From: a virus
Length of the DNA stretch: 64,000 bases
IMG/VR virus record: IMGVR_UViG_3300045988_184285
Strand: one strand, 5' to 3'
Part shown: positions 31,753-64,000 of the stretch, piece after piece
How positions within the stretch are numbered: position 1 is the stretch's first letter
How the letters are laid out: each line of letters begins with the position of its first letter
Position numbers and translations under genes: made by a program
The notes under the pieces: model-generated
What the model saw: the letters and a program-made list of their open reading frames with translations, nothing else
Databases searched by the model: none
Told to the model about the DNA's origin: nothing

Positions 31753-31788
31753 TTTATATTATACCACATTTCGCTTTAATGGTCAACT
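31753..31788 (-). promoter_or_regulatory. class A promoter (TTGACC-N14-TGTGGTATAATATAA)
   Basis: minus-strand 'TTGACCattaaagcgaaaTGTGGTATAAT'. Confidence 0.65.
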
Positions 31789-32642: not shown

Positions 32643-32705
32643 GAGTAACTTCTCCTTTTTCATGTGTGTTTGTTTGACGTGCATAAACAAGCTTCATGCA
32701 CTATG

Positions 32706-32741
32706 CTTATATTATACCACCAAAAGCATAAATAGTCAACA
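32706..32741 (-). promoter_or_regulatory. class A promoter (TTGACT-N14-TGGTGGTATAATATAA)
   Basis: minus-strand 'TTGACTatttatgcttttggTGGTATAAT'. Confidence 0.6.
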
Positions 32742-40765: not shown

Positions 40766-40904
40766 GTTAGTTGCCCTCCTAATAATGTGAGTGTTCTGTG
40801 GCTTGACCACAGTCGGATTTATATACACCCTTACCTACTCCCTAGTGTGCAGCCTTGATTGTAGATAAGAAAGTATATCAAAACACAGGCAATCAAATTG
40901 CATA

Positions 40905-53100: not shown

Positions 53101-56100
53101 CCGAGCTTCTGCTGACCATTTACGGAATTATGGGTAATCATATCGGTCAGGGTGAAGTCCTGAACCTTATCAGCATCGCCCAGTTCCTTCTGCCAGCCAG
53201 TGACTTCCAGCAGCATCGGACGAGGTTTGATAGTCAGAACACCGGGCGTGTAGTTCGCAATCGTATAGTTATAACCGCCATCTGCGTTTTCACGAGGTAC
53301 GAGAATCGTATGCTCTTCGCAGTAACTCTTATCGCCATACAAGTAATTGGAACCGACATCGGTGTACTTGTTGTAAGTCAGGTTGATGTAATCGCTCAGA
53401 ACATTCTTTGCGGTTTCAAGAACCTTCGCGGTTGCGCCATCGTTATTCTTCAAAGCAACATCAGCAGTATCGCCGTGCTTCAAGCCAACAACGGTCAGCG
53501 TGTAGTCGTTTTTGTTATCTTCGCCGTAGTAACGCTCCTGATTACCAAATACGATTGTCAGCGGGACAGGCGTAATGGTCATCTTAGCGTCGTTCGTTTC
53601 GACGATATAGTTGCTTGCTGTGCTCTTTTCGTAAGAAATACGGATGGTATATCCTTCGTCACGGACATTCTCGCCGCTGTCACGAACTGCCTTGATGCCG
53701 AACATTTCGCTGGTAGGCTTAATGATTTCGCCATCGACAGTCCACTTCAATGCGGGTTCCGTGCCGCCGTATGCTTTCGTTGCATCCAGAGCCGCAATGC
53801 GAATCAGACGAGGATGTACTTTCAGAACATTGGACTCATAAACGAGTTCGTAGTTGGAAACTACCTGTCCTTCACTGTTCGTGACGGTCTTGATGCCAAG
53901 AGTATTGCCGTAACCGGTGTTTTCGTTCACGGATACAGGATATCCATTTACGGGAACATGGGTATGCGGGTGGTCGCCGTCATGATAATGCTCATGACCC
54001 TTGTGCATTTCGTTGTATTTCTCCAAGCAGTAAGCACATTCTTCTTCGGGAACATCCGTCTGATAGATTACATCACTGCTCTGTGTAGCGGTTGTCAGAT
54101 AAGGCAGATTAGAAGTGCCGTTCTTGAATGCCAGAGCGGTGCGAGAAGCACCGTTTACGACTTCAACCACATTACCGATGGTATCATTACCAATCAGATG
54201 CATGTTGTTGTAATCAACGGTAGCGTCATCGCCCAGAACGGTCCAGTTGTTCTCGTCCGAAACATCCAGTTCATTGCCTTGGTCATCTGTGCCAAGAACC
54301 TTGAATGTGGAGTTGAAGAACGGGTTCGTTGTACCGTAAATCTTCTGGCTTTCGTCAACGGAAATCATAATCTTGCGGGGCTTGACCTCGATAGAACCGG
54401 GGTCTTCCGTGACAACATAGTTTTTCAATACATCATAGTTGAACTCGTTCAGACCAATGTAAGATACAGGGTAAGAACCAGCATCCGTCGTCTCGCTCGG
54501 TACTACATTGTATACGAATTTACTCTGATAATTGTTTGTCTTTTTCGCTTTCAGGTCGAGTTTTTCGTCGTCCGAAGAAGCGGTCTTATGGTCTTCGACC
54601 AGACCTTCCATGGTCAGCCAGCTATCAGAACCCTTATTCCAGTAGTAGACATCGTCTGCATACGGAAGTTTGATATTCTTGAAGCCATGTCCATAAGTGG
54701 TGCTTACGCTCTTGACCTGCGCACGCAGCGTCGTACGGTAAATACCACCGCTGAAAGTCTTGTCTGCGATATAGTAGTCGTTGTAGTTATTGTTCACAAG
54801 GTACATTTCATTGTTCTGTTCAATGTCACGCACCAGTGCGTTCGTATCATCGATATCCTGTACAGTGTACTCGAATACGATGTTTACTGTGCCGCCAACT
54901 GGAATTGTGTCAATGTAGAACTCTGTGCCCTGCTGATTCATACGAATGCCATTTGTGGATTTCAGGGTGATGGGACCATTACCTGCAAATCTGCTCTTCA
55001 GACGCAGGTTCTGGATGGCAACAGGAGCAACATAGTTGTTTTGTGCGGCCAGACCATATCCGGTATCCTTGTTCGTAACTGCAATCGTAACAGTCATCTT
55101 CTGACCAACCTGCGGGGTGGTCGTGCTGTAGCTGTACTTTACAGAATACGGCAGATGGCGAATCGTATTCATCGAAAGACCATTGTAACGGTCTTCCTTG
55201 ATGACACCATTGTCGCCGTTTGCATCATACCCGGTCAGCTGTTCGCCAGCATTGCTGTCAGCATAAGAACCAACATAGGTCTGAGCATTCAGTTCAACGG
55301 AATCATAGTTGGTGATATTATCAATATAGATATTTCCCTGTCCTTCTTCACCGATATTGGCGTTGTAGTAGGAATCATATACCTTGATGTTGTTCGGATT
55401 CACTACCGTGTTCTGGTAGTTATCCTGTTCGGTCTTGGTATAGCGGGTAATATCGATGTTTTCCTGTTTACCAGCAAGAATCATTTCATATGCCTGCTCG
55501 ATAGTCACATTCTGATTATCGTAGACAGTCGTATCTGTCAGATACTTGCCGTTTCCGATATCATTGGAGTTACCATCGTAGTTCCACTTGTATTTGTTCA
55601 CATCATGATACTGACTGTGAACATACAGAGGACGAGGATTGATGGTACCAGTGAAATCTTCACTTGCAATATAATAGTTGTCGAACGGGTTGTTAATCAG
55701 TTCAAGAATCGTAACGGTCTTGATACTGTGCAGACCCGTGTGGATGGACTCTCTGAAACTCGTCTTTGCGAAGTCCTCAGGAGCATAGTTTTCGCAATAA
55801 TAGCCGTAAGCCAGTGTACTGTTCAGCGCGACAGTATCGCCGTGAACAATACCGGAATCAGCAGTTGCTGCTTTGATTTTAATATCAGATACCTTTGCGG
55901 TGCTGATATTGTCGTAAATCTTATTGTTGTCATAGCTGTAAAGATGCAGCGGGCGCGGATAAATATCGAAGTATACGACATTACCGTTGCCGGATACATA
56001 TTCATCAGGTGTAGTGCTTTCTCCACGGACTACATAAGTCTTGCCGGGCTTCGTGTTCTCCCAGCAGAAAGTAACTTCGTACTTGCCCGTGTAGGTTGCC

Positions 56101-59100
56101 GTAGCAGTGTAGGAGCCGGTACGAACGAGAGGCTTCTTCTTGCTATCGGTAGTAGCGTTTGTAGGATATGTGATGTTGGGAGATTCGTTGTTCGAATAGG
56201 TGATGTTTACGCCACGCAGGATTTCCTGTTCATCGATACCTGCATCGGTATCGCCGTCCCATACAACGTGTGCGGCAACAGTCAACTGGTTGCCGTCGTA
56301 CATCTTGTTAGCAACAGTCAGCATGACCTTGGCACGAGTAGGAGTGCATTCGTTTGCATCCTCGAAGCCAATATCCATTGCGTTCTTACCAACGCGACGA
56401 TACAGACGTTTGTTCAGGTCAACGACCTTGATTTTTGCACGACCAGCCTGACCAATACCGGAACCGGCACCGTCATTCAGCTGGTCTGCACCAGTGACGT
56501 TTGCTTTAATGATGATGTTGCCGTTGTCAAGGTTTTCACCAACAGAAGCGGCATAAGAAGAACCACGCAATGCACCATCGGTAGAAGCAGACTGCCAACC
56601 AGAACCGCCGCCGTTTTCGTGCAGTGTGTTGTTGTAGCCTTCCTCGTCTTCTCGCTGCATTTTGATATCACTGCTGTGGGTGCCACTGTAAGTCCAGCCA
56701 CAGATATCGCCATGATGGTATTCGTAGCCGTCGCTGAAGACCTTGTCTTCCTTTAATGCACAGTGATAACGCTGACCACTGTTGTTTGAACCAGAACCGC
56801 CGACACCGCGCGTGGTGTATCCGTTGCCGGAAATTATTGCAGCACCGGAACCACCGCCAGCAACGCCGAACATCGACGAACCGTCACCGTAGTTCTTCAG
56901 CTGTCCGTCACCGATAAGGCCAAAAGCAACCGTGGTAGCGCCACCACCACCGCCAAAGCCTATGGGAGAATTGCTGTGGTAGCTGTGGTCAGGGTCGCCT
57001 CCCCCTTTATAGCAGTCATAGAACACTGCGCCGACACCACCGGAACCACCGCCGTTATAGCCACCGGAACCACCGGAACCACTGCCGGTAGAACCGCCAC
57101 CGGAACCACCACCGGAACCGCCACCGCCTGCACCGCCAGCGACAAAGTAGAGGGTCGTGCCTTCCTTAATGTCTGCTGTGATAATGGTGTGGCTGCCGGA
57201 GTTGCCGCTGATACCATCTGTCATACTTGCATTGCCGCCGCCAGCACCCCACAGGTCAATCTGATAGGTTGCATCGAACGGAGCGGTCCAAGAAGAAGTG
57301 GGATTGTTTCCGTCATTGGCTTTGAACGACTTGTCGGCCGCACGAACATTCTTTTCATCGATGTAGAAGAAAACCTGTTCGTTGGTGCCGTCAAACTCTT
57401 CCATGTCGTAGCAATGATACTGGATAGCATTGCGCCAGAACCATTGCCAGATTTCCTTCGGGTAAGAATAATCGGACCATAATGCATAGCCGTGGTCCAG
57501 ATAAGGTGCATAGTCCTCGTTGTTCTTGTCCAGATATCCGCGTTCATCGAGAGAAATGCCAAGTTCAGCCATCGTTTTGCCCTGAACATCAATCTGAGAA
57601 GGATTGCCGTTCATGTCATAGCGAGTAACGGTTGTCATTTGTCCCTGATACGGGGTATTGAGGTTAACACTCAGATGGTCGCTCTGGCTGAACACGGTAC
57701 GAGAAGTGTCTCTGTGCTTGCCGTACGGGAACTCATTCACAATCTGATAGCGGGACATAATGTACCGAAGTCCATTAGGCGCTTCAATTGTCAGTTCGGG
57801 ATACATGAAAATAGAGTGTTTATCAACGCCACAACTAACAAGATTGCGCTCGTTTGCATGGATACTGATATTGTAATCCAGCCACAACTCTGCACCAGTG
57901 TCGGTGTTATCTTCATCGATACCGCCATTCACATAGTCAAAGTTATGAGCAAGGGTATTTGTGATGGTCTGACTCTTCAGTTTCGTGCTGTTGTAGCCAC
58001 GAATGTATTCCAGATATGGTTTGCACTGGAAATAGAAGTGCTCAGTACCAAAATCCATCGGGTTCGTTGCGGATTCGATATGCAGGCTTGTGGTAATACT
58101 CCACTTCGCATATGCGCTGTTGATGTCGAACGGCTGACCGTTCAGCATCGTATCCTCAACAGGTCTGATATCATCAATGGTGATGTAGGCAGTAAACTTA
58201 CCGAACGGAGAACCGGAGTGCTCGGTTTCGATTGCGTCAACAACCTGCTTCATTACAGAACTGTCATCTGTATTGATGTCGTATCTGGTTTTGACGATAT
58301 TTGCCCAGTCTTTGTAGTTTTCGGTGGTCAATCCGTTTCCGCCATTTGCATACCCGTTGATATTGATGGGGGCAATGACAGGCTTATAGTCGGTGGATTC
58401 CGAATTCAAGTCGTCTTGGAATCCCCACTGCAATACAGGGGTAAGAATACGGTTTCCAGATTCCGTCAATTTACCGGGGGAGAATGTGATAGTCGTTGTA
58501 TAAACGGCCACGTTCTTATCGGAAATCAACGGGTTATTAGAACCACCTCTGCTGGCATTCCAGTTATCTACTTGGTCCTGTGTAGTCTCAACAGACCAGT
58601 AATTCTGACCAAAATCGCCAGTCGCATCGCCCTCGCTGTTATGCTCCTGCATCATCAATGCACGGGCTTCCAGCATAGTTGCGGAAACGAAAGGTGCATC
58701 GACCTGCAACAGGCCATAACGGGAAGTATCGAACCCTGCATTGTCAGCATCGCCGATTGCGCTGTAGGAGTTCTCGACCTTGGTTCTCTTTTCGTTAAAG
58801 CGATAGCTTGCAACGATACGGAAATAATATCCGGACCAGTTGTAATCTGCCGCGTGCAGAGTAAGGGTGATAGTAGTGTGTTTCTGAGCACACTGCTGGT
58901 CAGTGAAACCATCAGGACGCCAGAAATCGGCAGGCAGCCATTTGTTGTCATGAATCATACTTGCGGTCTCTTTCCCCTTTGCGAGGGTATCGACCGTATG
59001 TGCTTCGATGTCAACCTTGTTTACCTGACTATTATCTACGGTATTCAGTGTATAAGTACCGCCGAATGTGACGGATGTAGCAAGAGTCTGCCAATCGTCA

Positions 59101-62100
59101 TCATGGGGGTCTTTGTACTGAACATCGTAGCTGTAGCCCTTGTCATCAAGGCCCTTCCAGTAATCTGTTTCAAACACGAAGGTTGCTTCGTCCTGAGTCA
59201 TAACACGCTGATTCGGTGCCTGCGTCATGGACATGGGGCGCTCTTCGATTTGAATGATACCGGAAGCTTCCGGAGTGATTACGCCGGGGTCGATGGTGGA
59301 ATAAGTTTTGCCCTCAACCTCGTAGTCTGTACGAAGCTGAATAGCGTTTCCTGTATATGCCAGCATTTGCAGCTGTACATCCACGGAACTGTGCGGGTAA
59401 TTATATACACCATCATTACCGTCATGGAATACCGGCGTTTTGATGATACCTGTTACGGCACCGTCTTCGGTAGTGAACTGACCGTAATGACCAATCTTGA
59501 CCCAGTCGCTCAGAGCATTATTGGTATTACGCAGGTCAACCACGCGGTAATACCATGTTACGGATTCATTGCTGATGGGCTGATTGTAGATGATACCGGA
59601 ACCTTCGAGAACCTTGGTGGTCTCGCCTTCCCAGTAACGGTAGTTCTCAATAGGTGTTGCTTCGATTGTCAGCAGTTCCAGAGGAACCGTTTCACAGTCG
59701 TTCCAGAAATGAGGAGGAACCTTTGCAACGATAGGACCGTATTTAGTGACTTCGTTGCCAGCCTTGTCATATACGCGGGCACGAAGAATCGTTTTGCCGC
59801 CTACATAGATACAAGGCAGGTTAGAAATACAATACTGGTCTACGTTGTTGACTACGCAGCTGAAGTCGTCGCCTTCCTGCAGCAGCGCAGTATTGTCCTC
59901 ATACCGGATATGGACGGTGTATCCCTCGTGAACCTGACCATCGTTGAACAACTTTGCGTCGCTCAGCTTGCCGTAGATACGAGCGATACCGGTGGTACGA
60001 ACGGACGGAGAGCTGTTACCGCTGTCCTTAAAGACAGTGTCCCAGCCTTTCAGTCTATCAGTACCAAGGTTCCAGTCGTTGCCGTCTCCGGTACGGTATG
60101 CACCCAAATCACCGGTGGTGTTATCGAACAGAGCACCGTTTTTGGGGACTTTTACATCGAAGTATTTGCTGTTCCAGTGACCTGTGAAGTTCTTGATAGG
60201 CTTCCAAGTCGTGGAATCAAAGCCCAGCTTCGTCAGGTCGAGGTCTTCCATCAGTTCGTAGCAATCGCTCAGAGGATACCAGTAGCTGCCGCCATTGGCG
60301 AGAGCTGTCAGAATCTTCTTGGCGTTTGCTGCATTGACACGATGGACGAAGTGCGTCATCTGCTGGTCGGCTTGGTCAGCGGCACAGACTTCACACTGCT
60401 TGCGCTGAGAAATCCACATCAGGGTGTTGACGCAAAGTTGCATTTCTTGAGGAGAAGCGCGGTTAATATGACCACCGCCATCATCCAAAGGAAGGTGACC
60501 AATCTGGTTCATAACAAAGTTGCCGGAACCAGCCAGATAGAAGTTATTGGTGCCGCTGCGTCCATCGACGGTGGGCTCATACAGCTTACCAAGGCCAGCA
60601 TTTGTGAAATCAGATGCGCAGCCGTTGTACTGAACCCAGATATCGTCGAATGCGACCTGACCATTACTGTGTGTCAGAGCAGCAGGGACTGTCTGCCCTA
60701 CACTGAACTTATAAGGCCAGTTAGTCGGTGTACGGTGCTTGATGTCGGGGTTGACCATTGCCTCTTCGTATGTGAAACCACCATTAGAACGGATACGAAG
60801 ACTTTCAGAACCGTAGATTGTTGTCTTTAAGAACGGCCCATGCGAACCACCGGAAGACATAATAGCGGAAGGTACAGTCAGCGGGTCAACAATCCAGCCG
60901 AAATACGCTTCATCGCTTGCAGAGTAGTAGCCGGAACCAACGAGTGTGTTGGAATTGTTTTCACCCATCAGAGCGTTCATATTCCAGTGACCACCGCTGA
61001 CTTCCCAGCTATTTACCTGATAATAACGAGTAGCAGTATCGTTCGGGTCAATCTTTCTTTCGTCATAAATGTTGTTGGGGTAGCCACGGCCACCGCCATG
61101 TGCATCGAACCAGGCACCGGCATAGGCGTACATGGTATCGTGACCAATACCAAAGCCGTAACCATTGCCAATATAGTTCTTCAAGGCATAATAGGCTTTG
61201 CCAGACAAGTCAGGTTCCGAAAAATAGCATGTTCCCCAGTATACAGAATCGACTCGATAATTTCCTTCTGCATCCTTTAAATATCTGTCAGGGTCGACGT
61301 TAAAATCGTTGCACGAAACTGTATTCAAAGTGATGTGAGCCATACCATTCTGAGAATAACCATTTGTCATGGCTTGATTTACATATTCTTTAATGGTAAG
61401 GGGAAATGTCCTTCCATCTTCCTCCTTGGTATAGCAGAACAGAACCTGAACAGCATCCTTGTAGGAAGTGCCGCGACCAGATGCGGGAATAGAAACCGCT
61501 GCACCAGTAGCAGTGTTACCTACGATATTGCTATTGTGATAACGGAAGTAAACTGTTTTGCCGTACCATTCGGAGTTGATTTCGAGTTTGTTGCCGTCCG
61601 TGAGCGCAAACGATTTATATTTTCTTGTTCCTCCGGTTGGTTTCCCTTCCGAATCAAGTTCGTTTGCATTGGCATTGCCATTAAAATTGCCGCCAATATA
61701 CGACCACATGCGGTCGGCTTGCTGTCCTGTGATTTCGCCGTTTGCAAGCCAACCGCTTTTGCCGTCTTGTCCATAAATCTTGGCATACATATCAGCTGTC
61801 AGGTATTCCATGCCAGCAGACAGACCGGTCACCCACTGAGGATTTGTCTGGCTGTCAAGTTGGACGCCTGCTGCATAGGTAGCAATGCCAGAAAGGGCAA
61901 GACGCTGTTTCAACTTGTCCTCTACAGACAAGTCATTGTACATTTCGTCTTCACTCTTTTCCATCGACGGGATAGAAACAGTGATTTCTGTTGTGATGGT
62001 ATTGTCGAGTGTATCATCGGTGAGCTTGTTTTCATCTGCGCCGTTTGCAATCAGTTCTTCCTTGGCGGCAGCAATATAATTGTCGTCATCGATAGTGATT

Positions 62101-63158
62101 ACACAGCGGTAAGTGGTGTAAGCATCATACTCATCGATGGTATGAGTGTAGGTATCAGAAGTTGCTCCCTCAATAGCTTCCCATCCATTGGCCGTAAGAG
62201 TATCCTGACTCTCCTCACTTTGTTCGGTTTCTGCCGACTGCACAGCGACATCATTTGTCGTGCTCTCGGTAAAAACAAATTCATTGTTTTCATTCAGCGT
62301 TGCGGAAGCATGTTCGTTACCCTTGTCAGCAGAAATAACGATATTGCCGTCCACGTTTGCTGCGGTGATTTCGAATCCTTCCAGCGCATAGTTGCGGGTA
62401 TTGAATTCGATGTTAATGTTGCTGGCGTCTGCTCCGATTGCAGCCATTGCATCGGCAACTGCACGATATAACTCGATACCGGACCAAGTAGCATCCGGAT
62501 TGTCTGCCAATGTTTCGGCAGGAGTTTTATCATCGTTCAGATAACCGTATGTAGTAGGCTCTGCATCGCTGTAATCGTACTCCATCACATCCATATCGTA
62601 ATCGGTATCCTGAGGCTCAATGAACCTCTTGTACCACTGATAGTGGAGATTGACGTCATTACGATTTACGTGAGCATTGAAAGTGACTTCATCGCCAATT
62701 TCGGCCTCGACTTGACCTTCGGTCGCATCATCAGCCAAACTGACAGCCACAAAATCACTTTCATCAACGTCAGGAGTTTCCGTTGCTTCCGGAACTTCTG
62801 TAGGCTCAGGCGTAGCCGTCGCATCAGGAGTTTCGGTGGGTTCCGGAGTGGATGTTGGAACCTCGGTGGGCTCCGGAGTCGCCTCCGGTTCTGAGGAATC
62901 CGTTTCATCAGGCATTTCTGTGGGGACGGGTGTCCCTACAGGTTCGGTAATCTCTTCTTCAGACGAAGAAGAGCTGGCAGAGTCTAACGCTTCAACAGTC
63001 TCAGTAGAAGTGCTTTCGGATACGGCATCCGTAACAAGACTACTGTCAGTCGTGATGGGTTCTGCTGCATAAGCGATTGTGGAGCTAAATGTAGACATCG
63101 TCATCATGACTGCCAAAACTGCTGAAGCGACACGCTGCCATGTTTTGCCTTTTTGCAT
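41187..63158 (-). CDS. giant cell-wall-anchored surface protein (7323 aa) with DUF11 conserved repeats, MBG/YGX repeats and a Gly-rich domain
   Basis: signal peptide MQKGKTWQRVASAVLAVMMTMSTFSSTIAYA; C-terminal third made of DUF11/TIGR01451-like units (VDKTEAKVGDTLNYTITV.N.G...); Gly-rich segment (GGAGGGGSGGGSGGGS..., ~56.7-57.2 kb); C-terminal NKKTG + TM + KRKK sorting signal. Confidence 0.9.
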   Translation of the reverse strand: MQKGKTWQRVASAVLAVMMTMSTFSSTIAYAAEPITTDSSLVTDAVSESTSTETVEALDSASSSSSEEEITEPVGTPVPTEMPDETDSSEPEATPEPTEVPTSTPEPTETPDATATPEPTEVPEATETPDVDESDFVAVSLADDATEGQVEAEIGDEVTFNAHVNRNDVNLHYQWYKRFIEPQDTDYDMDVMEYDYSDAEPTTYGYLNDDKTPAETLADNPDATWSGIELYRAVADAMAAIGADASNINIEFNTRNYALEGFEITAANVDGNIVISADKGNEHASATLNENNEFVFTESTTNDVAVQSAETEQSEESQDTLTANGWEAIEGATSDTYTHTIDEYDAYTTYRCVITIDDDNYIAAAKEELIANGADENKLTDDTLDNTITTEITVSIPSMEKSEDEMYNDLSVEDKLKQRLALSGIATYAAGVQLDSQTNPQWVTGLSAGMEYLTADMYAKIYGQDGKSGWLANGEITGQQADRMWSYIGGNFNGNANANELDSEGKPTGGTRKYKSFALTDGNKLEINSEWYGKTVYFRYHNSNIVGNTATGAAVSIPASGRGTSYKDAVQVLFCYTKEEDGRTFPLTIKEYVNQAMTNGYSQNGMAHITLNTVSCNDFNVDPDRYLKDAEGNYRVDSVYWGTCYFSEPDLSGKAYYALKNYIGNGYGFGIGHDTMYAYAGAWFDAHGGGRGYPNNIYDERKIDPNDTATRYYQVNSWEVSGGHWNMNALMGENNSNTLVGSGYYSASDEAYFGWIVDPLTVPSAIMSSGGSHGPFLKTTIYGSESLRIRSNGGFTYEEAMVNPDIKHRTPTNWPYKFSVGQTVPAALTHSNGQVAFDDIWVQYNGCASDFTNAGLGKLYEPTVDGRSGTNNFYLAGSGNFVMNQIGHLPLDDGGGHINRASPQEMQLCVNTLMWISQRKQCEVCAADQADQQMTHFVHRVNAANAKKILTALANGGSYWYPLSDCYELMEDLDLTKLGFDSTTWKPIKNFTGHWNSKYFDVKVPKNGALFDNTTGDLGAYRTGDGNDWNLGTDRLKGWDTVFKDSGNSSPSVRTTGIARIYGKLSDAKLFNDGQVHEGYTVHIRYEDNTALLQEGDDFSCVVNNVDQYCISNLPCIYVGGKTILRARVYDKAGNEVTKYGPIVAKVPPHFWNDCETVPLELLTIEATPIENYRYWEGETTKVLEGSGIIYNQPISNESVTWYYRVVDLRNTNNALSDWVKIGHYGQFTTEDGAVTGIIKTPVFHDGNDGVYNYPHSSVDVQLQMLAYTGNAIQLRTDYEVEGKTYSTIDPGVITPEASGIIQIEERPMSMTQAPNQRVMTQDEATFVFETDYWKGLDDKGYSYDVQYKDPHDDDWQTLATSVTFGGTYTLNTVDNSQVNKVDIEAHTVDTLAKGKETASMIHDNKWLPADFWRPDGFTDQQCAQKHTTITLTLHAADYNWSGYYFRIVASYRFNEKRTKVENSYSAIGDADNAGFDTSRYGLLQVDAPFVSATMLEARALMMQEHNSEGDATGDFGQNYWSVETTQDQVDNWNASRGGSNNPLISDKNVAVYTTTITFSPGKLTESGNRILTPVLQWGFQDDLNSESTDYKPVIAPININGYANGGNGLTTENYKDWANIVKTRYDINTDDSSVMKQVVDAIETEHSGSPFGKFTAYITIDDIRPVEDTMLNGQPFDINSAYAKWSITTSLHIESATNPMDFGTEHFYFQCKPYLEYIRGYNSTKLKSQTITNTLAHNFDYVNGGIDEDNTDTGAELWLDYNISIHANERNLVSCGVDKHSIFMYPELTIEAPNGLRYIMSRYQIVNEFPYGKHRDTSRTVFSQSDHLSVNLNTPYQGQMTTVTRYDMNGNPSQIDVQGKTMAELGISLDERGYLDKNNEDYAPYLDHGYALWSDYSYPKEIWQWFWRNAIQYHCYDMEEFDGTNEQVFFYIDEKNVRAADKSFKANDGNNPTSSWTAPFDATYQIDLWGAGGGNASMTDGISGNSGSHTIITADIKEGTTLYFVAGGAGGGGSGGGSGGGSTGSGSGGSGGYNGGGSGGVGAVFYDCYKGGGDPDHSYHSNSPIGFGGGGGATTVAFGLIGDGQLKNYGDGSSMFGVAGGGSGAAIISGNGYTTRGVGGSGSNNSGQRYHCALKEDKVFSDGYEYHHGDICGWTYSGTHSSDIKMQREDEEGYNNTLHENGGGSGWQSASTDGALRGSSYAASVGENLDNGNIIIKANVTGADQLNDGAGSGIGQAGRAKIKVVDLNKRLYRRVGKNAMDIGFEDANECTPTRAKVMLTVANKMYDGNQLTVAAHVVWDGDTDAGIDEQEILRGVNITYSNNESPNITYPTNATTDSKKKPLVRTGSYTATATYTGKYEVTFCWENTKPGKTYVVRGESTTPDEYVSGNGNVVYFDIYPRPLHLYSYDNNKIYDNISTAKVSDIKIKAATADSGIVHGDTVALNSTLAYGYYCENYAPEDFAKTSFRESIHTGLHSIKTVTILELINNPFDNYYIASEDFTGTINPRPLYVHSQYHDVNKYKWNYDGNSNDIGNGKYLTDTTVYDNQNVTIEQAYEMILAGKQENIDITRYTKTEQDNYQNTVVNPNNIKVYDSYYNANIGEEGQGNIYIDNITNYDSVELNAQTYVGSYADSNAGEQLTGYDANGDNGVIKEDRYNGLSMNTIRHLPYSVKYSYSTTTPQVGQKMTVTIAVTNKDTGYGLAAQNNYVAPVAIQNLRLKSRFAGNGPITLKSTNGIRMNQQGTEFYIDTIPVGGTVNIVFEYTVQDIDDTNALVRDIEQNNEMYLVNNNYNDYYIADKTFSGGIYRTTLRAQVKSVSTTYGHGFKNIKLPYADDVYYWNKGSDSWLTMEGLVEDHKTASSDDEKLDLKAKKTNNYQSKFVYNVVPSETTDAGSYPVSYIGLNEFNYDVLKNYVVTEDPGSIEVKPRKIMISVDESQKIYGTTNPFFNSTFKVLGTDDQGNELDVSDENNWTVLGDDATVDYNNMHLIGNDTIGNVVEVVNGASRTALAFKNGTSNLPYLTTATQSSDVIYQTDVPEEECAYCLEKYNEMHKGHEHYHDGDHPHTHVPVNGYPVSVNENTGYGNTLGIKTVTNSEGQVVSNYELVYESNVLKVHPRLIRIAALDATKAYGGTEPALKWTVDGEIIKPTSEMFGIKAVRDSGENVRDEGYTIRISYEKSTASNYIVETNDAKMTITPVPLTIVFGNQERYYGEDNKNDYTLTVVGLKHGDTADVALKNNDGATAKVLETAKNVLSDYINLTYNKYTDVGSNYLYGDKSYCEEHTILVPRENADGGYNYTIANYTPGVLTIKPRPMLLEVTGWQKELGDADKVQDFTLTDMITHNSVNGQQKLGAGSRITDASVVVNPDKVPIVFNLVRAEGEEVGSYPVYSTPQDRQIGNLAANDQKQLELDNPNYDFEYRYANDLIVKRQGLMITVDDKVRYYGDRVNRFYDGSSDYTYHVFKVENGEAVEITAEEAGLNTSTFTFTHLDTQTSSSGTYKNCISLSGVHSTIYDDDDITITAGNLTIIPRPVSVIAADNTKVYGDADPELKYTLHDGVRGEDGNYYIEYANGPVLTEKEGADVPVQPGDLEGTGVTREPGEDVWTGEHSFGKAYAINANDISPVSKDGITNYVITMENGNFTITPAELVVTVKGGYSKTYGEENPAFDADITGFKRDDTKETVLNGELGFATLCFDLSDAGKYIVTAGNNNEDAVNPDCVVLEDGEEHIGSTFEVKSNTNFEKNYVIRYVNGDITVNPKELIVRIDHKVKTYGTADPAFTFHYEDNAGNVIGLIDPENSPLNVELYRTKGENVVRGDVTAADSLNKWGTTLYDGDYLISAKYDTNNKNYTVTVYDGSLKIVPATLTVTVDGGYKTTYGDEIPEFTYSITGFVGRDVKDETGTGIKDDESKVSGTATMYCNDNAGNPVTNKTKVGNYPINYDRQQLVADNSNYKFIYVGGDLTIGKKPIHVKADDQQKVYGEKDPDPLTWTITDPEELVNPGDKDFFDITTKRPGADTDDGEQVGKYPITIDGTDPSGNYEIITTPGTLTIVPATIVVTVIDDEKYFGEDNPKPNVTITGYKRGDTIDDIGGKDALKTKTDAEKWSPVGEYPVSAKDSTFHNPNYDFVYIDGKLTVKPLIINIKAEDDRKTYGDNDPDKFNVSYTLTNEKDEPYTPDKDLRDYIDRALNLDAARVPGENVRTENPGYSIVPTYTEVDNIEIGTVTPGHFFIDPREVTITANSAEKVYDGTPLTEPGYTYAPELVDNDLLGIHDKMDSVTVTGSQTEVGSSKNVPSDAVIINTEDGSGSNANYIIKYVDGTLTVRDKEIVSIEKSADRERATDYDVIRYTITVTNATSHDLHNVIVKDTNNFVGVPVLSQANGVTYDAEKGEFVIAEISHLRDETHTNAVTFTYTYTVDPTDHGTNNNDILENNAKITDMKVVESYTENPDGSTTPNYTEPNKEWLVETPDVDVEIIRQNLTIEKSADKTEAGVGDVVTYTLKVTNTGNTKLENVVVKDTNNFMGEPVENTKLHFGYRVNDDGTWTITSLGIGKSVTITYKYTVVADDLTNGKLDNIATATIPARKDPTIPEKPVDSNEVIVPLYYKHLTIVKSADRDHAYPGEVVKYQVTVTNDGTVDMTNVTVSDNTNALGMFIVSTGDGYTYNPETRLFTIPALNVGDSVTLNYLYIVQNGDPETIINVATAHAPKNPNTEIPGDKDIEEPSKPVEVDVLRDELTIVKNADKSFVDMNGNDTTVTYTLTVKNSGNTKLTNVIVTDTSNGNGTVEYTGDLMYDGNGKWMIPELNAGDSVEITYVYTAVAEDMNLDNGNIVNTAVAEGKNPDNKTVTSDPDTETVHVGEVPDRDIRVVKASLESSVMIGDTIHYTITVTNNGTMTAQNVVVRDFNDGIGEINAASSDKYTYDAATHSFTIAEIAAGEVVEIPVTYTVQEGDKGTVNNAAVEIPEVPKIEKKADKQTVVVGEVVTYTITVTNTTNETKTNVEVKDTNNFTSVITPAENTDVVSYIGDKVWNISSIGAGESVDIVYTYTVMNEDAPNTMLVNNAEMTYVTDSGKVKIPSNEVDIPIIPETPTPEHVGPTVVKQADKAIANIGDTVHYTVVMHNNDTVDYVNAALYDKNNFNGVITNVKNGTLESASAGSAVIKVGTIPAGKTVTVEYDYIVLNTDAGKGQDTYNELKNVATLHYWFADEDQTPENEKTKPSNEVTVKVPGSDVPVPVNPPEGKLKVEKFVDKKSASVGDMLHYTVKVSNVGDGELKNILVEDFFDGHGKLNYIPAVGVVVNGDGTYTINKLPAGTFMELRFTYVIVEGDEPEVLNTAVVTTPPVDPPLEPTKTADKKFAFVDEIVTYTISVYNPDTKAKTNVTVKDTNNFVGSINATNTDKYTYNGDNTWTIPEIGAGETIDITYTYTVQSNDEKLLENKADVTYSENGDTVKLDTPTVDVVVPDKGTVSIHKEADKKMAKPGEVVTYNVTVTNNKGFDVHDVVVTDANNFAGKITGVDGADYTFENGEFHIAEIAAGASVTLTYTYTVEIGDVPTQILENIATADVPGTNPEDPNNPGHGKDPNKPIDNDEKIPSNPVDVEVPGSETETKIPDLVLTKSVDKNEAVVGDTLNYTITVKNNGKGDAENVTVKDFFDGKGTLNFVAMDGVTDNGDNTYTIASVKAGESVTLNFTYVVVDGDAPEVLNAAVITTPEPPTDIVKSADKHIAKVNEIVTYTITVKNNSKDTLTNLLVSDTNNFKGEIEAKDGKGYTYNGDKTWTIATLESGKSIDITYTYTMQASDETVIENTADVRYSHNGTDYDIPSNPVDVEKPNDGVVTIFKTADKTKAEPNEVVTYTVTIHNGKDYDIKNVRLTDANNFAGKIEGVDGAGYKFINGEFVIDKIPAGGDAVVHYTYTVQISDVPTKILENVATAHVPGKNPGDPDEEIPSNKVDVEVPGDGTHVDVPEGKLEIVKSVDKTEAKVGDTLNYTITLTNVGGQAVKNAVVKDFFDGNGVLNFVPMDGVTDNGDYTYTVANVEKGQSITLRFTYTVVAGDAPMVLNAAVVKDPTPPVDIEKTADKHVAMVDEVVNYTITVKNTTDKAVTDLLVSDTNNFTGAIASKDNAKYTYNGNHTWTIPSIKAGESIDILYTYTVKTTDPSTLVNEADVRYTTDDGEYVIKADPVEVVVPKDGEVTIVKSGDKKIAEPGEVVTYTVTIHNGKAHDITNVVVSDSNNFAGTITGSNGVGYKFVDGHFVIDKIAAGADAVLTYTYTVQIADVPTHILENVATAHVPGTNPEDPENPGHGKDPDKPIDPDTDIPSNKVEVEVPGSEVETEIPEISITKSVDKPTAKIGDTLNYTVTVKNGGNADAENILIKDFFDGNGTLNFKAMDGVTDNGDNTYTISTVKAGESVKLRFSYVVVEGDEPLVLNAAVIKDPTPPIDVEKEADKHIAKVDEVVTYTISVKSTTSEPVDNVTVTDTNNFKGEIKAENADKYTYNGNKTWTIPTIAAGETIHITYTYTMQAEDATVIENIANVTYSKDGTDYNIPSNPVDVEKPDDGVVTIRKAADKTKAEPGEVVTYTVTVHNGKNHDIENARLTDTNNFAGEIVSVDGADYTFENGEFTINKIPAGGDVVIHYTYTVEIADVPTQILENIATIHVPGTNPEDPNNPGHGKDPEKPIDPDTEIPSNKVDVEVPGSETETEIPVIEITKSVDKAEAKVGDTLNYTVTVANKGKADAENVVVEDFFDGNGTLNFVPMDGVADNGDNSYTISTVKAGESVTLNFTYVVVTADAPKVLNAAVVKDPTPPIDVEKDADKYIAKVTDVVTYTITVKNTTDETVNDITVADHNNFAGDVTAESSNRYTYNGDGTWTIGYLDAGEALDIVYTYTVETTDESVMENTAAIKYTHDGEQYNIPSNTVDVKKPDDGVVTIWKSANKTVAKPGETVTYTVTVHNGKNHDIQNAALTDENNFSGSIFAVDGAGYHYENGVFTIDTIPAGGDVVVHYAYTVGIADVTTHILENVATIHVPGTNPEDPENPGQGKDPTKPIDPDTDIPSNKVDVEVPGSGTETDIPLEKSLTIVKSADKTKVNVGETINYRVVVTNTGEVDLVNVTVKDNNDGASHIEAKNGDGYTYDSATTTFTIARIPVGESFTLTYSYVAVDADAGHDVINVAVAKAPGQNPEDPENPGHGKDPSKPIDEDVEKPSNEVKVPVVKPSTPTTPDEPKPTPTPDNPKPTPTPVPTEKPKTPPIGWLDIFKVDGKPFSLFSIFTSNKKTGIGFAQSIVGLAAMVGIGVAALVVVNHKRKKDENDNKDNHKDDSAE
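41300..47520. repeat. about five tandem ~1.1-kb near-identical super-repeats (each ~370 aa, 3 DUF11 units) inside giant gene 2
   Basis: recurrent blocks, e.g. 'gggaacttccacatcaaccttgttggacggaat...' at ~41965, 43075, 44180, 45295, 46355. Confidence 0.75.
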
Positions 63159-63261
63159 AGCGTTCTCCTTTCAAAATATTGCCAAGTTATACCTTTACGC
63201 AATCTTGTTCACATATCTGCACATATATTTGCAAAATTGCATAATCAGCACACTTGGCGGT

Positions 63262-63298
63262 ATCTATATTATGCCACATTTGGGCGCAATAGTCAATC
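63262..63298 (-). promoter_or_regulatory. class A promoter for giant gene 2 (TTGACT-N14-TGTGGCATAATATAG)
   Basis: minus-strand 'TTGACTattgcgcccaaaTGTGGCATAAT'. Confidence 0.6.
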
Positions 63299-63310
63299 AA
63301 AATTGCAAGA

Positions 63311-63345
63311 AAATAAAAGAAAAAGTCCGTCTAAAAAAGACGGAC
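63311..63345 (-). terminator. intrinsic terminator downstream of the mini-CRISPR array
   Basis: stem gtccgtct/agacggac, minus-strand TTTTTCTTTTATTTT follows. Confidence 0.6.
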
Positions 63346-63388
63346 CTGAAAACTGAAGTATCTGTTATAGTGTATTTGCCATTGCTGT

Positions 63389-63489
63389 ATTTCAATCTAA
63401 CGCAACCAATGCGGGTTGCAACGGTCTCAGCACTCAGACCATCAGGCACAACACCATTTCAATCTAACGCAACCCATGCGGGTTGCAAC
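63389..63489 (-). CRISPR. orphan mini-CRISPR array: two 34-nt type I-C-like repeats, one 33-nt spacer
   Basis: repeats 63389-63422 and 63456-63489 differ at one position; in transcribed (minus) orientation 'GTTGCAACCCGCATGGGTTGCGTTAGATTGAAAT', palindromic stem plus ...GATTGAAAT tail as in I-C repeats; spacer 63423-63455. Confidence 0.7.
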
Positions 63490-63659
63490 AGCAAACTTGT
63501 ACAAACGAAGCAATAAGTTGTCATGCATTCTGTACAATGTTTGTCTGCTTTTTGACCAAACAATATGGTCAGATACTACTTACCGCAATGGAATCATATC
63601 CTTTCATCATATTATTTGGTGCGAAGCGACCAGCAAAAATAGCTAATCCGCGAAGAATA

Positions 63660-63695
63660 ATTATATTATACCACAGAAGGTATGAATGGTCAAGT
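63660..63695 (-). promoter_or_regulatory. class A promoter reading toward the mini-array (leader promoter)
   Basis: minus-strand 'TTGACCattcataccttcTGTGGTATAATATAA'. Confidence 0.6.
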
Positions 63696-63779
63696 CGAGC
63701 GAAGAGCCGTTGAAAACAGTGCAAGAAGTTGAGATAAGCGATGTATCGAAAAAGTAGGTTGCATATCAGGTGATGAGAA

Positions 63780-63811
63780 TTGAAAAGGAGACCGATTTGT
63801 GGTATAATATA
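63780..63811 (+). promoter_or_regulatory. class A promoter on plus strand (TTGAAA-N14-TGTGGTATAATATAG)
   Basis: plus-strand 'TTGAAAaggagaccgattTGTGGTATAAT'; 44 nt upstream of ATG at 63855. Confidence 0.65.
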
Positions 63812-63854
63812 GACAAGAAACTAACGATACGAGGCAAAAAAAGAGGTGAAAATT

Positions 63855-64000
63855 ATGCGAGTTTTGGTAATCCCGGACTGCCATTTGAAACCGTGGATGT
63901 TTGAAAAGGCAACAGCTATCATGAGCGGCGAAAGGACAGATAATGCTGTTTGCTTAATGGATATTCCCGATGATTTTGGAAAAGATGACCCGGATTTGTA
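63855..64000 (+). CDS. putative metallophosphoesterase-like protein (N-terminal part; continues beyond window)
   Basis: MRVLVIPDCHLKPW... resembles calcineurin-like phosphoesterase N-terminus (D-x-H); RBS AAGAGGTG. Confidence 0.35.
   Translation, partial: MRVLVIPDCHLKPWMFEKATAIMSGERTDNAVCLMDIPDDFGKDDPDL

What the first reader, a model, noticed from the sequence alone, without database searches (positions are those of the whole stretch)
63311..63695. Orphan two-repeat mini-CRISPR array with type I-C-like repeats, its own promoter and terminator, and no cas genes
Two 34-bp direct repeats (63389-63422, 63456-63489) differ at one position. They flank a unique 33-bp segment. Read on the minus strand the repeat is 'GTTGCAACCCGCATGGGTTGCGTTAGATTGAAAT'. 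It has an internal palindrome (GCAACCC/GGGTTGC) and a 3' ...GATTGAAAT tail, both shared with type I-C repeats such as B. halodurans 'GTCGCACTCTTCATGGGTGCGTGGATTGAAAT'. A consensus extended -10 promoter (63660-63695) points into the unit from about 170 bp upstream, which is the leader side. A hairpin plus T-run terminator lies about 40 bp beyond the last repeat. The leader-distal repeat carries the mismatch that weakens the stem, as is typical of terminal repeats. Stand-alone mini-arrays on plasmids and phages can borrow host Cas proteins to attack competing elements.
Basis: partly seen in the sequence, partly recalled or inferred. Interest (0 to 1): 0.8.

Follow-up and report, generated by a model that had tools for sequence, protein, structure and literature searches.

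The report
Satellite type I-C CRISPR mini-array
This is a real one-spacer CRISPR array, one of a dozen or more scattered over a huge extrachromosomal element common in the human gut; close relatives of that element carry their own type I-C Cas genes, and the spacer is aimed at a surface-protein gene carried by rival sibling elements.

Summary
In detail: there are two 34-nt repeats, a 33-nt spacer, an upstream promoter and a downstream terminator. The CRISPR reading is right and the type I-C call is right. The "orphan array that borrows host Cas" reading is probably wrong.

- **No host array.** This repeat family forms no array in any of 185,579 species-representative genomes.
- **Many copies on huge elements.** The repeats occur on 89-346 kb IMG/VR "viral" contigs that are 93-97% identical to the window. 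Those contigs hold at least 12 dispersed mini-arrays, each with the same ~150-nt leader.
- **Element-encoded Cas genes.** One mini-array on those contigs sits directly upstream of cas3-cas5d-cas8c-cas7. No cas1, cas2 or cas4 lies next to it.
- **Live adaptation.** Arrays at matching positions share leader-distal spacers and differ in leader-proximal ones.
- **The target.** The window's spacer matches 36 human-gut contigs (27 perfectly). Every match is preceded by TTC, the canonical I-C PAM, and lies in a ~450-aa Big_2 lipoprotein gene of sibling elements.
- **Same locus.** In those siblings that gene lies upstream of the giant-protein gene, where the window has its array.
- **Reciprocal targeting.** A sibling's array at the same locus targets the window's giant-protein gene.

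Verdict: a crRNA cassette of an element-borne type I-C system used in warfare between sibling elements. It is a new variant of a known kind.

The parts
63665..63693 (-). Locus-specific upstream promoter: -35 TTGACC, a 17-nt spacer, and an extended -10 TGTGGTATAAT.
   Evidence: The promoter scan matched 11 of 12 consensus positions with TG before the -10. It is conserved in the matching arrays L002, L017, L019 and L023, and an analogous promoter precedes the L004 array. Most other arrays lack it. The same TGTGGTATAAT-type motif recurs upstream of other genes in the window.
63490..63641 (-). Conserved ~150-nt CRISPR leader shared by all mini-arrays of this element family. It contains a weak internal promoter-like pair (TTGCTG at 63636-63631, 16 nt, TAATAT at 63614-63609). 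It also contains a conserved hairpin, GACCAtattgttTGGTC, at 63554-63570.
   Evidence: BLAST of the window against the sibling loci gave 78-97% identity to about 25 other arrays over 63389-63641. An alignment of 25 distinct leaders confirmed the shared block. The hairpin varies by paired changes (GACCA..TGGTC versus GACTAT..ATAGTC). The equivalent promoter-like pair is flagged at the cas-adjacent array (TTTACT-17-TATTAT). Promoter function is inferred.
63456..63489 (-). Leader-proximal repeat, GTTGCAACCCGCATGGGTTGCGTTAGATTGAAAT, which equals the family consensus.
   Evidence: The predicted fold is a stem-loop at -12.6 kcal/mol.
63423..63455 (-). Spacer GGTGTTGTGCCTGATGGTCTGAGTGCTGAGACC (33 nt).
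   Evidence: There are 36 protospacers in human-gut metagenome contigs, 27 perfect and 9 with one mismatch. All are preceded by TTC. They lie in a Big_2 lipoprotein gene of sibling elements. The same spacer occurs in six other array copies: L040, L045, L046, L047 (truncated), L057 and L064.
63389..63422 (-). Leader-distal repeat with one G-to-T change in the 3' arm of the stem.
   Evidence: The stem weakens to -8.8 kcal/mol. L064 shares this variant, while L040 and L045 have a perfect second repeat.
63313..63347 (-). Intrinsic terminator (10-bp hairpin plus T-run) about 40 nt beyond the last repeat.
   Evidence: It is conserved in L003 and L034. In L034 the trailer and terminator remain but the array and leader are absent, and homology breaks exactly at the repeat edge.
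61425..61459 (+). Protospacer inside the window's own 7323-aa giant-protein gene. It is matched 34/35 by spacer 2 of the sibling array at the same locus (L003). The upstream flank is ..TTCCTC.
   Evidence: L003's own copy of this site carries 5 mismatches, all within spacer positions 1-7, which is the seed.

Best explanation
The unit is a working one-spacer crRNA cassette of a type I-C CRISPR-Cas system carried by the element itself. That element is a huge extrachromosomal element (about 240-380 kb) that is common in human gut metagenomes. IMG/VR labels its relatives viral, but phage versus plasmid is unresolved.

**Proposed mechanism**
1. Transcription starts at the upstream TTGACC/TGTGGTATAAT promoter, and perhaps also at a weak promoter inside the leader. 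It runs through leader, repeat, spacer and repeat, and stops at the hairpin terminator.
2. Cas5d, encoded elsewhere on the element, cuts each repeat at the 3' base of its stem-loop. This gives a ~67-nt crRNA with a ...UAGAUUGAAAU 5' handle, the 33-nt spacer, and a 3' hairpin handle.
3. Cas8c, Cas7 and Cas5d assemble on the crRNA as a Cascade complex.
4. Cascade recognises the TTC-flanked protospacer in the Big_2 lipoprotein gene. Sibling elements carry that gene at the position the window's array occupies, upstream of the giant-protein gene.
5. Cas3, which has an intact HD nuclease and helicase, degrades the rival genome. Co-resident or incoming siblings are thereby excluded.

**Shown here**
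- The array anatomy.
- The repeat and leader family, and its dispersal over the sibling elements.
- Polarised spacer turnover between matching arrays.
- The I-C cas operon on siblings 93-97% identical to the window.
- The TTC PAM.
- The identity and location of the targets.
- Reciprocal targeting of the window by a sibling.

**Inferred**
- Transcription and crRNA processing.
- That the window's own element carries the cas operon.
- That interference, rather than repression, is the outcome.
- Where the adaptation enzymes (Cas1, Cas2, Cas4) come from.
For: **1. A real family.** The exact repeat occurs at 7 loci, and the degenerate pattern at 24 loci on 9 IMG/VR contigs of 18-346 kb. At least 12 separate leader-bearing arrays lie on the 346-kb contig.

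**2. Every array carries the same ~150-nt leader**.

**3. Matching arrays differ at the leader end and share distal spacers.** Examples are L001 versus L007, L018 versus L027, and L014, L021 and L025. In L057, sp0 (the window's spacer) lies ahead of an older spacer.

**4. A cas operon lies directly downstream of one array on both large siblings**.
- Cas8c/Csd1: Pfam E 1.9e-78.
- Cas7: Pfam E 2e-53.
- Cas5d: weak Pfam match (E 1.2e-5).
- Cas3: helicase and Cas3 C-terminal domains.
- The best solved-structure matches for all four proteins are type I-C components (8zns, 8g9u, 7kha, 8dej, 3kg4), and the Cas3 HD motifs align.
- The best NCBIfam models are the I-C ones, and cas3_HD and cas3_core score above their cut-offs.

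**5. The window is 93-97% identical in DNA to these contigs**.

**6. Targets of the window's spacer.** It has 36 protospacers, 27 perfect, and all follow TTC.

**7. PAM across the family.** Of 30 spacers, 11 have protospacers in the sampled sibling DNA. Ten distinct sites have TTC and one has CTC or TTC.
- TTC is the canonical I-C PAM, and CTC and TCC are weaker functional ones.
- Native I-C spacers are 33-37 nt with a mode of 35, as seen here (PMC5602111).

**8. The target contigs are siblings.** For example, L065 1-10659 equals window 52656-63302 at 95%. The target gene sits where the window has the array.

**9. Convergent targeting.** The matching L003 array has one spacer against the same Big_2 gene, about 200 nt away. 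Its other spacer matches the window's giant gene 34/35, while L003's own copy is mutated only in the seed.
Against: - The cas operon is not in the window. Its presence on this particular element is inferred from relatives.
- No cas1, cas2 or cas4 lies within 10 kb of the operon in either the close group or the ~50%-identity group. The source of new spacers is therefore unknown.
- The element's Cas5, Cas8c and Cas7 score just below NCBIfam's I-C cut-offs. They are only 28-34% identical to bacterial Csd2, so their behaviour may differ from model I-C systems.
- The window's distal repeat has a weakened stem, which could impair formation of the 3' handle.
- There are no expression data.
- Only about a quarter of the 346-kb sibling was sampled.
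Confidence: 0.8

Rival explanations
1. This is a true orphan mini-array on a phage or plasmid. It relies on the host bacterium's type I-C Cas proteins, both to make crRNA and to acquire spacers.
For: The window has no cas genes. The element-borne operon lacks cas1, cas2 and cas4, so at least adaptation may depend on another source. MGE systems without adaptation modules are thought to use host machinery in trans (PMC9071438; PMC7162821).
Against: No array with this repeat family exists in 185,579 species-representative genomes. The exact search gave 0 hits, and the degenerate search gave 5 singletons, which I estimate is about the chance level. Near-identical siblings encode a complete I-C interference set next to a cognate array. 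More distant relatives carry a matching, covarying repeat. This points to a self-contained pairing of effector and repeat.
Confidence: 0.1
2. The unit is an RNA anti-CRISPR decoy (a Racr or solitary-repeat unit). The repeats soak up a host's Cas proteins, and the spacer is irrelevant.
For: Solitary repeats of the same family do occur on the siblings, at L013/L015, L016 and L002 6755-6788. Racrs are known for several CRISPR types (PMC10651486, listed; PMC11656645).
Against: The window unit has two repeats and a spacer of normal length. That spacer has 27 perfect, TTC-flanked targets. The spacer is kept in six other array copies. The element encodes cognate Cas proteins, and no host array with this repeat was found.
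Confidence: 0.03
3. The unit is a regulatory crRNA-like RNA of the CreA/CreR/crlRNA type. It would repress a gene by partial complementarity without cleavage.
For: Mini-arrays with regulatory spacers are widespread (bioRxiv 10.1101/2023.03.03.530964, listed). Another spacer of the family, in L005, matches its own element with 3 mismatches next to TTC at several loci.
Against: The window's spacer has no match with 11 or fewer mismatches in the window or in the array-bearing loci. Its matches are full-length and perfect, lie within a coding region of other elements, and have a canonical PAM. Cas3 has intact HD motifs. The array is not inside or beside the cas operon.
Confidence: 0.03
4. The unit is a decaying relic. 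It would be a leftover of recombination between arrays that is no longer expressed or used.
For: It has only one spacer, and the distal repeat has a weakened stem. Sibling loci show array loss, truncation (L047) and odd-sized terminal spacers.
Against: The promoter, leader, consensus first repeat and terminator are all intact. The same spacer is retained in several contigs, some with perfect repeats. Its targets are abundant and perfectly matched.
Confidence: 0.05

Closest known systems
CRISPR-Cas systems of huge phages and large plasmids (Al-Shayeb et al. 2020, PMC7162821), including a type I-C variant without Cas1/Cas2
   Same: The system sits on an element larger than 200 kb. It lacks cas1, cas2 and cas4 at the locus, its arrays are compact, and its spacers target other mobile elements. 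Cas5d stands in for Cas6.
   Different: Here Cas3 is a canonical HD-helicase protein rather than a substitute helicase. The arrays are not one or two compact loci: at least 12 one-to-four-spacer arrays are spread over the genome, each with a copy of the same 150-nt leader. The targets found so far are near-identical siblings.
Virus-borne mini-CRISPR arrays used in conflicts between viruses (SPV1/SPV2, as summarised in PMC11656645)
   Same: The arrays hold one or two spacers, and those spacers target closely related elements. The implied outcome is exclusion of a sibling.
   Different: Those mini-arrays use repeats identical to the host's and depend on host Cas proteins. Here no host array with this repeat was found, and the element lineage encodes its own interference module.
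Canonical bacterial type I-C systems (D. vulgaris, B. halodurans, N. lactamica, L. pneumophila)
   Same: The gene order is cas3-cas5-cas8c-cas7. The repeat has a central stem-loop and a ...GATTGAAAT tail. The PAM is TTC with minor CTC and TCC. Spacers are 33-37 nt with a mode of 35.
   Different: There is no adjacent cas4-cas1-cas2. Cas7 is only 28-34% identical to bacterial Csd2, and three proteins fall just under NCBIfam's I-C cut-offs. There are many satellite arrays.
Plasmid-plasmid CRISPR targeting and orphan plasmid arrays (Pinilla-Redondo et al. 2021, PMC9071438)
   Same: Arrays on mobile elements preferentially target other mobile elements. Orphan arrays are short, and adaptation modules are often missing.
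   Different: That survey covers sequenced plasmids, and type IV systems dominate the plasmid competition story. This element has no BLAST relative among 72,556 plasmids or 50,697 phage records.

Membership tests
CRISPR array | Near-identical direct repeats separated by unique spacers of similar length. | tested here: met
   Two 34-nt repeats with one mismatch flank a 33-nt spacer. Sibling arrays have 2-5 repeats and spacers mostly of 33-37 nt.
CRISPR array | A conserved leader on one side, and a degenerate repeat at the far end. | tested here: met
   A ~150-nt leader is conserved across about 25 arrays. The most diverged repeats lie at the trailer end.
CRISPR array | Spacer content varies between related genomes, with new spacers at the leader end. 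| tested here: met
   L001 has one extra leader-proximal spacer compared with L007. L018 and L027 share the distal spacer and differ in the proximal one. In L057, sp0 precedes an older spacer.
CRISPR array | Spacers match foreign DNA next to a consistent PAM. | tested here: met
   Eleven of 30 spacers have protospacers. TTC precedes 10 distinct sites, and CTC or TTC precedes one.
Type I-C CRISPR-Cas | The signature gene cas8c (csd1). | tested here: met
   It is absent from the window. It is present on siblings 93-97% identical to the window: Pfam Cas_Csd1 E 1.9e-78, best solved structures 8dej_I and 7kha_I, and TIGR01863 at 201 bits against a cut-off of 218.65.
Type I-C CRISPR-Cas | Cas5d as the pre-crRNA endonuclease, with no Cas6. 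| tested here: inconclusive
   A Cas5d homologue is present: TIGR01876 at 78.9 bits against a cut-off of 85, and solved Cas5d structures 3kg4, 8g9t_N and 7kha_A. No cas6 is in the operon. Catalytic residues and activity were not examined.
Type I-C CRISPR-Cas | Cas7 of the Csd2 family, and Cas3 with HD nuclease plus helicase. | tested here: met
   Cas7: Pfam E 2e-53, and solved structures 8g9s_B and 7kha_B. Cas3: cas3_core and cas3_HD score above their cut-offs, and the HD motifs align to 8zns_A.
Type I-C CRISPR-Cas | An adjacent cas4-cas1-cas2 adaptation module. | tested here: not met
   The ORFs downstream of cas7 have no Cas1, Cas2 or Cas4 hit in Pfam or NCBIfam. None lies within 10 kb in three close and two ~50%-identity contigs. 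The rest of the element was not searched.
Type I-C CRISPR-Cas | A 5'-TTC PAM and spacers of 33-37 nt. | tested here: met
   compared with PMC5602111.
Type I-C CRISPR-Cas | A repeat classified as I-C by a repeat classifier. | not testable with these tools
No repeat classifier is available here. Rfam has no match.
Host-dependent viral or plasmid orphan mini-array | Repeats identical to those of a host CRISPR locus. | tested here: not met
   The exact repeat has 0 matches, and the degenerate pattern has only 5 singleton matches, which I estimate is about the chance level, in 185,579 GTDB species representatives. The host strain may not be represented.
Host-dependent viral or plasmid orphan mini-array | The element itself has no cas genes. 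| tested here: not met
   Sibling elements carry cas3-cas5d-cas8c-cas7. The window's own complete genome could not be examined.
RNA anti-CRISPR (solitary repeat unit) | A lone repeat with no functional spacer. | tested here: not met
   There are two repeats and a spacer with 27 perfect, PAM-flanked targets.
CreTA/CreR-type regulatory mini-array | A location within or beside the cas operon, and a spacer partly complementary to a promoter on the same genome. | tested here: not met
   No cas genes are in the window. No match with 11 or fewer mismatches exists in the window. The targets are coding sequences on other elements.

The most novel reading that the evidence does not exclude
The dispersed leader-array cassettes may do more than guide destruction of rivals. 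They may act as selfish, allele-replacing modules.

- **Array in place of its target.** The window's array occupies the position where siblings carry the very gene it targets.
- **Convergent array.** A second sibling array at that locus targets the same gene.
- **Sharp breakpoints.** Homology between siblings breaks exactly at array edges (window versus L002 at 63389, L034, L064).
- **Insertion at another locus.** A whole leader-array module is present in the 5' UTR of a gene in a sibling (L004) and absent from the same site in the window.

Together these would fit a CRISPR-driven, gene-drive-like process. Cutting the rival allele in a co-infected cell would be repaired by recombination with the array-bearing allele. 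That would spread the array and reshuffle the accessory surface-protein genes of a huge, prevalent gut element.
Probability: 0.12. Interest if true: 0.85.

Novelty: new variant of a known kind. Interest (0 to 1): 0.55.

Why it matters
This would be a natural, apparently widespread case of near-identical huge mobile elements in the human gut fighting each other with their own type I-C CRISPR-Cas system.

- **Prevalence.** The element's Cas7 cluster is indexed in 294 blocks of the public assembly collection, on contigs up to 377 kb.
- **Unusual layout.** The guides are not in one array. They sit in a dozen or more single-promoter cassettes scattered through the genome.
- **Testable questions.** Spacer acquisition can be studied in a system with no adaptation genes at the cas locus. 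So can the spread of leader-array modules, and whether CRISPR shapes which surface-protein cassettes such elements carry.
- **Possible tool.** The divergent, compact cas3-cas5-cas8c-cas7 set with a defined repeat and a TTC PAM could also serve as a Cas3-based tool.

Tried and rejected
- **Rfam.** A permissive scan of 62900-64000 gave only sub-threshold terminator look-alikes.
- **BLAST of the locus.** Searching 63160-64000 against 72,556 plasmids and 50,697 phage records found no match.
- **BLAST of the spacer.** The same two collections gave only chance-level hits with E of 0.3 or more.
- **Exact spacer in IMG/VR.** There were 0 matches. The targets appeared only in the much larger metagenome collection.
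- **Exact and degenerate repeat in GTDB genomes.** No arrays were found.
- **Bulk scan of 130 flanking ORFs.** I scanned them through one alignment against PADLOC and PHROGs. The output lists only the 25 families hit by the most members. TnpB and helicase models filled the list, so single-copy Cas hits stayed hidden. The cas operon was found instead by scanning the ORFs next to one array explicitly.
- **Phage hallmark genes.** Ten unannotated window proteins gave only a ParM-like partition protein in PHROGs. Phage versus plasmid remains open. The "tail protein" hits may come from Ig-like (Big_2) domains; I did not check which ORFs produced them.
- **Jug phages.** I considered whether this element is one of the Jug jumbo gut phages (PMC12880540). 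That paper does not mention element-encoded Cas genes and predicts Bacteroides hosts. This element uses sigma-70-type promoters.
- **Adaptation genes.** None lie within 10 kb of the cas operon. The whole element could not be fetched.
Full report
**1. The observation**

- Two 34-nt direct repeats lie at 63389-63422 and 63456-63489. They differ at one base and flank a unique 33-nt segment.
- A search of the whole window with up to three mismatches finds only these two copies, with none expected by chance.
- On the minus strand there is a near-consensus promoter, TTGACC-17-TGnTATAAT, at 63693..63665.
- About 40 nt beyond the last repeat there is a hairpin and T-run terminator at 63347..63323.
- The repeat RNA folds into a 7-8 bp stem with a 12-13 nt single-stranded tail that ends in GAUUGAAAU.
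- The G-to-T change in the leader-distal copy weakens the stem from -12.6 to -8.8 kcal/mol.
- The window holds no cas gene. Pfam scans of the large ORFs and a tblastn with the Cas proteins found later were both negative.

**2. Where else the repeat occurs**

Bacterial and archaeal genomes do not carry it as an array.
- The exact 34-mer is absent from one genome for each of 185,579 bacterial and archaeal species.
- A degenerate pattern that keeps only the stem and the tail gives five singleton hits there, in unrelated phyla. I estimate that this is about the number expected by chance.

Large contigs in IMG/VR do carry it.
- The exact repeat marks 7 loci.
- The degenerate pattern marks 24 loci on nine contigs of 18 to 346 kb.
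- Extracting the arrays shows at least 12 separate leader-bearing units on the 346-kb contig and at least 5 on a 241-kb contig.
- Each unit has one to five repeats and is followed by its own hairpin and T-run.

The window is closely related to these contigs.
- Window 29203-33158 matches the 346-kb contig at 93-97%.
- Window 52492-63588 matches an 89-kb contig (L003) at 94.8%.
- Window 63389-64000 matches four further loci at about 95%.
- The window therefore comes from the same kind of element.
- That element has no BLAST relative among GenBank phage or PLSDB plasmid records.

**3. These are live CRISPR arrays**

- All arrays share a ~150-nt leader immediately upstream of the first repeat, at 78-97% identity.
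- The leader starts with a weak -35/-10-like pair and contains a hairpin whose stem varies by paired changes.
It exists only at the window's locus, at the matching loci, and at one other locus. Many other arrays are instead preceded by a terminator.
- Arrays at the same genomic position in different contigs share their distal spacers and differ in the leader-proximal ones:
  - L001 has one extra proximal spacer compared with L007.
  - L018 and L027 share the distal spacer only.
  - L014, L021 and L025 differ throughout.
  - L057 has the window's spacer ahead of an older one.
- This is the pattern left by polarised spacer acquisition.

**4. The Cas proteins**

- Explicit scans of the ORFs beside one array found a Cas3 helicase and a Cas5d homologue.
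- Fetching 10 kb on each side of that gene showed array, cas3, cas5d, cas8c and cas7 in that order on both the 241-kb and the 346-kb contigs. Pfam gave Csd1 at E 1.9e-78 and Cas7 at E 2e-53.
- For all four proteins the best matches among solved structures are type I-C components: 8zns and 8g9u for Cas3, 3kg4, 8g9t and 7kha for Cas5, 8dej and 7kha for Cas8c, and 8g9s and 7kha for Cas7. The Cas3 HD motifs align.
- NCBIfam's best models are also the I-C ones. The cas3 core and HD models score above their cut-offs. Cas5c, Csd1 and Csd2 fall slightly below theirs, so the system is divergent.
- The ORFs that follow cas7 have no Cas1, Cas2 or Cas4 match.
- The same four-gene operon, again without adaptation genes, is seen in three more contigs of 62-354 kb. 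It is also seen in a group whose Cas7 is only about 50% identical.
- That more distant group has a covarying repeat, TTGCATCCCGCAAGGGATGCGTAAGATTGAAAT.
- The close Cas7 cluster is indexed in 294 blocks of the public assembly collection, on contigs up to 377 kb.
- Bacterial Csd2 proteins are only 28-34% identical.

**5. What the spacer targets**

- The spacer has no exact match in IMG/VR. It has only chance-level hits in phage and plasmid records.
- A scan of metagenome contigs with its first 22 bases returned 42 loci; all the descriptively named contigs are human-gut assemblies.
- Six of these are copies of the array itself. The other 36 are protospacers, 27 matching all 33 bases and 9 matching 32.
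- Every protospacer is preceded by TTC.
- The protospacer lies in frame (..F GVVPDGLSAET K..) in a ~450-aa protein with a signal peptide, a lipobox-like LVGC motif and three Big_2 Ig-like domains.
- The contigs that carry it are sibling elements. L065 1-10659 matches window 52656-63302 at 95%, and L042, L056 and L034 behave the same way.
- In those siblings the Big_2 gene lies upstream of the giant-protein gene and points the same way. That is the position where the window has promoter, leader, array and terminator.
- In L034 the array's trailer and terminator are retained, and homology breaks exactly at the repeat edge.
- None of the array-bearing loci carries the protospacer, and no match with 11 or fewer mismatches exists in the window.

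**6. The pattern holds across the family**

- Of 30 spacers of 30-40 nt, 11 have matches with 5 or fewer mismatches in the small sample of sibling DNA fetched here.
- The three bases upstream are TTC at ten distinct sites and CTC or TTC at one, with TCC as a minor variant.
- TTC is the canonical type I-C PAM, and CTC and TCC are weaker functional ones. Native I-C spacers are 33-37 nt with a mode of 35, as seen here (PMC5602111).
- The array at the window's locus in L003 has two other spacers.
  - One targets the same Big_2 gene about 200 nt from the window's protospacer, on the other strand.
  - The other matches the window's own giant-protein gene at 61425-61459 in 34 of 35 bases.
  - L003's own copy of that second site differs at five positions, all within spacer positions 1-7, the seed.
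- The window's element is therefore both armed against siblings and targeted by one of them.

**7. Interpretation**

- The unit is best explained as a satellite crRNA cassette of an element-borne type I-C system, used against sibling elements.
- The anatomy, the family, the spacer turnover, the cas operon on near-identical relatives, the PAM and the targets are all shown here.
- Transcription, Cas5d processing, Cascade assembly and Cas3 degradation are inferred from what is established for type I-C.
- That this particular element carries the operon is inferred from relatives.
- Two things are unknown. One is where new spacers come from, since no adaptation genes lie near the operon. The other is whether the element is a phage or a plasmid.
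  - IMG/VR lists the relatives as viral.
  - The window shows a ParM-like partition protein, a second SecY, a trigger-factor-like protein and giant surface proteins, with no phage hallmark.

**8. Rivals**

- **Host-Cas dependence.** This is disfavoured by the absence of cognate host arrays and by the element's own effector genes. It remains possible for adaptation.
- **RNA anti-CRISPR decoy.** This does not fit a normal spacer with perfect, PAM-flanked targets.
- **Regulatory crRNA-like RNA.** This does not fit the lack of any self match.
- **Relic.** This is hard to square with the intact promoter, leader, first repeat and terminator, or with the retention of the spacer in several contigs.

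**9. Comparison with what is known**

- CRISPR systems on huge phages and plasmids are already described. They often lack Cas1, Cas2 and Cas4, have compact arrays, and carry spacers against other mobile elements (PMC7162821; PMC9071438; PMC11656645).
- Viral mini-arrays that exclude related viruses by using host Cas proteins are also described (PMC11656645).
- This case combines the two: it has its own I-C interference module and many one-to-four-spacer arrays.
- I did not find three features described elsewhere:
  - the duplication of one leader at a dozen or more sites across the genome;
  - an array sitting at the locus where siblings carry its target;
  - homology breakpoints that fall exactly at array edges.
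- I rate it a new variant of a known kind, of moderate interest.

Noticed in passing
window 41187-63158 (-) and 32819-40828 (-): Two giant secreted proteins of 7323 aa and 2669 aa fill about 30 kb of the window. The second has seven MBG (YGX-type) domains. Both have an N-terminal signal-like sequence, and the 7323-aa protein also has a C-terminal hydrophobic anchor and many ~300-aa repeats. The 7323-aa gene is itself a CRISPR target of a sibling element.
   Followed up: partly
window 9180-12258 (-), 21042-22178 (-), 28056-29591 (-): The element carries its own SecY (Pfam E 1e-86) and a trigger-factor/FKBP-like protein next to it. It also has a ParM/Alp7A-like partition ATPase and a flotillin/SPFH protein. 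This could be a private secretion and segregation toolkit for the giant surface proteins. No phage hallmark gene was found in the window.
   Followed up: partly
window 32672-32686 versus L004 3475-3782: In the 346-kb sibling, a 307-nt module (part of the leader plus three repeats) sits between the promoter and the ribosome-binding site of the homologue of window gene 31983-32690. The window has the empty site. The first "spacer" of that array is a copy of the downstream flank joined to the last 14 nt of a leader, as if leader-repeat units had inserted twice.
   Followed up: partly
L016 2032-2065 (-): A solitary consensus-like repeat lies directly between a TGTGGTATAAT promoter and the GAAAGGAG ribosome-binding site and ATG of a 554-aa gene. 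It is therefore in that gene's 5' UTR, so Cas5d might process or regulate that mRNA. L013 and L015 carry another leaderless solitary repeat.
   Followed up: no
L002 9727-9761 (also L017, L019, L023); L002 10150-10184: The single spacer of the array next to a tRNA cluster is the 3' end of a tRNA gene plus 7 nt of flank. Its nearest match is the element's own tRNA-Tyr, with 5 mismatches behind a TTC. This suggests it targets a sibling's tRNA allele while sparing its own.
   Followed up: partly
L005 12786-12821 spacer; matches at L005 12570-12605, L002 6573-6608, L030 20709-20737 and others: One spacer matches its own element at several loci. It always has the same three mismatches (positions 7, 11, 14) and a TTC PAM. 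This could be tolerated self-targeting, a regulatory guide, or a repeated genomic motif that was captured.
   Followed up: no
window 63389; L034 about 2439; L064 1091-1342: Homology between sibling elements starts or stops exactly at array boundaries. The window and L002 share leader and flank but have different trailers. L034 keeps the trailer but lacks the array. L064 switches partner within the leader. The repeated leader-array modules may act as recombination junctions.
   Followed up: partly
L065 10879-11569 (-): A group II intron lies between the giant-protein gene and the Big_2 target gene in sibling elements. Rfam matches RF02004 at 86.7 bits and RF00029 at 56.9 bits. It is absent from the window.
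   Followed up: partly
L007 5498-6607 (-); L077 12188-13297 (+); L077 3801-4742 (+): TnpB (IS605 OrfB) genes lie within 1-2 kb of arrays or of the cas operon. In the ~50%-identity relatives an AcrVA2-like gene sits just upstream of cas3.
   Followed up: no
proteins P0006-P0036: Many database "proteins" fuse part of this Cas7 to RlaP, poly(A) polymerase/CCA-adding enzyme, Thg1, metallophosphatase or UvrD domains. The RlaP, CCA-adding, Thg1 and metallophosphatase genes lie just upstream of the cas-adjacent array; the UvrD helicase gene lies elsewhere (L007). These fusions look like assembly or gene-calling chimeras, possibly created at the repeated leader-array modules.
   Followed up: no
window 13833-13856, 27956-27969, 29871-29886, 31754-31786, 32707-32739, 63798-63811: The extended -10 motif TGTGGTATAAT(AT) of the array's promoter recurs upstream of several genes in the window. 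One copy belongs to the divergent promoter of the metallophosphoesterase-like gene that starts at 63855. It looks like the element's standard strong promoter.
   Followed up: no
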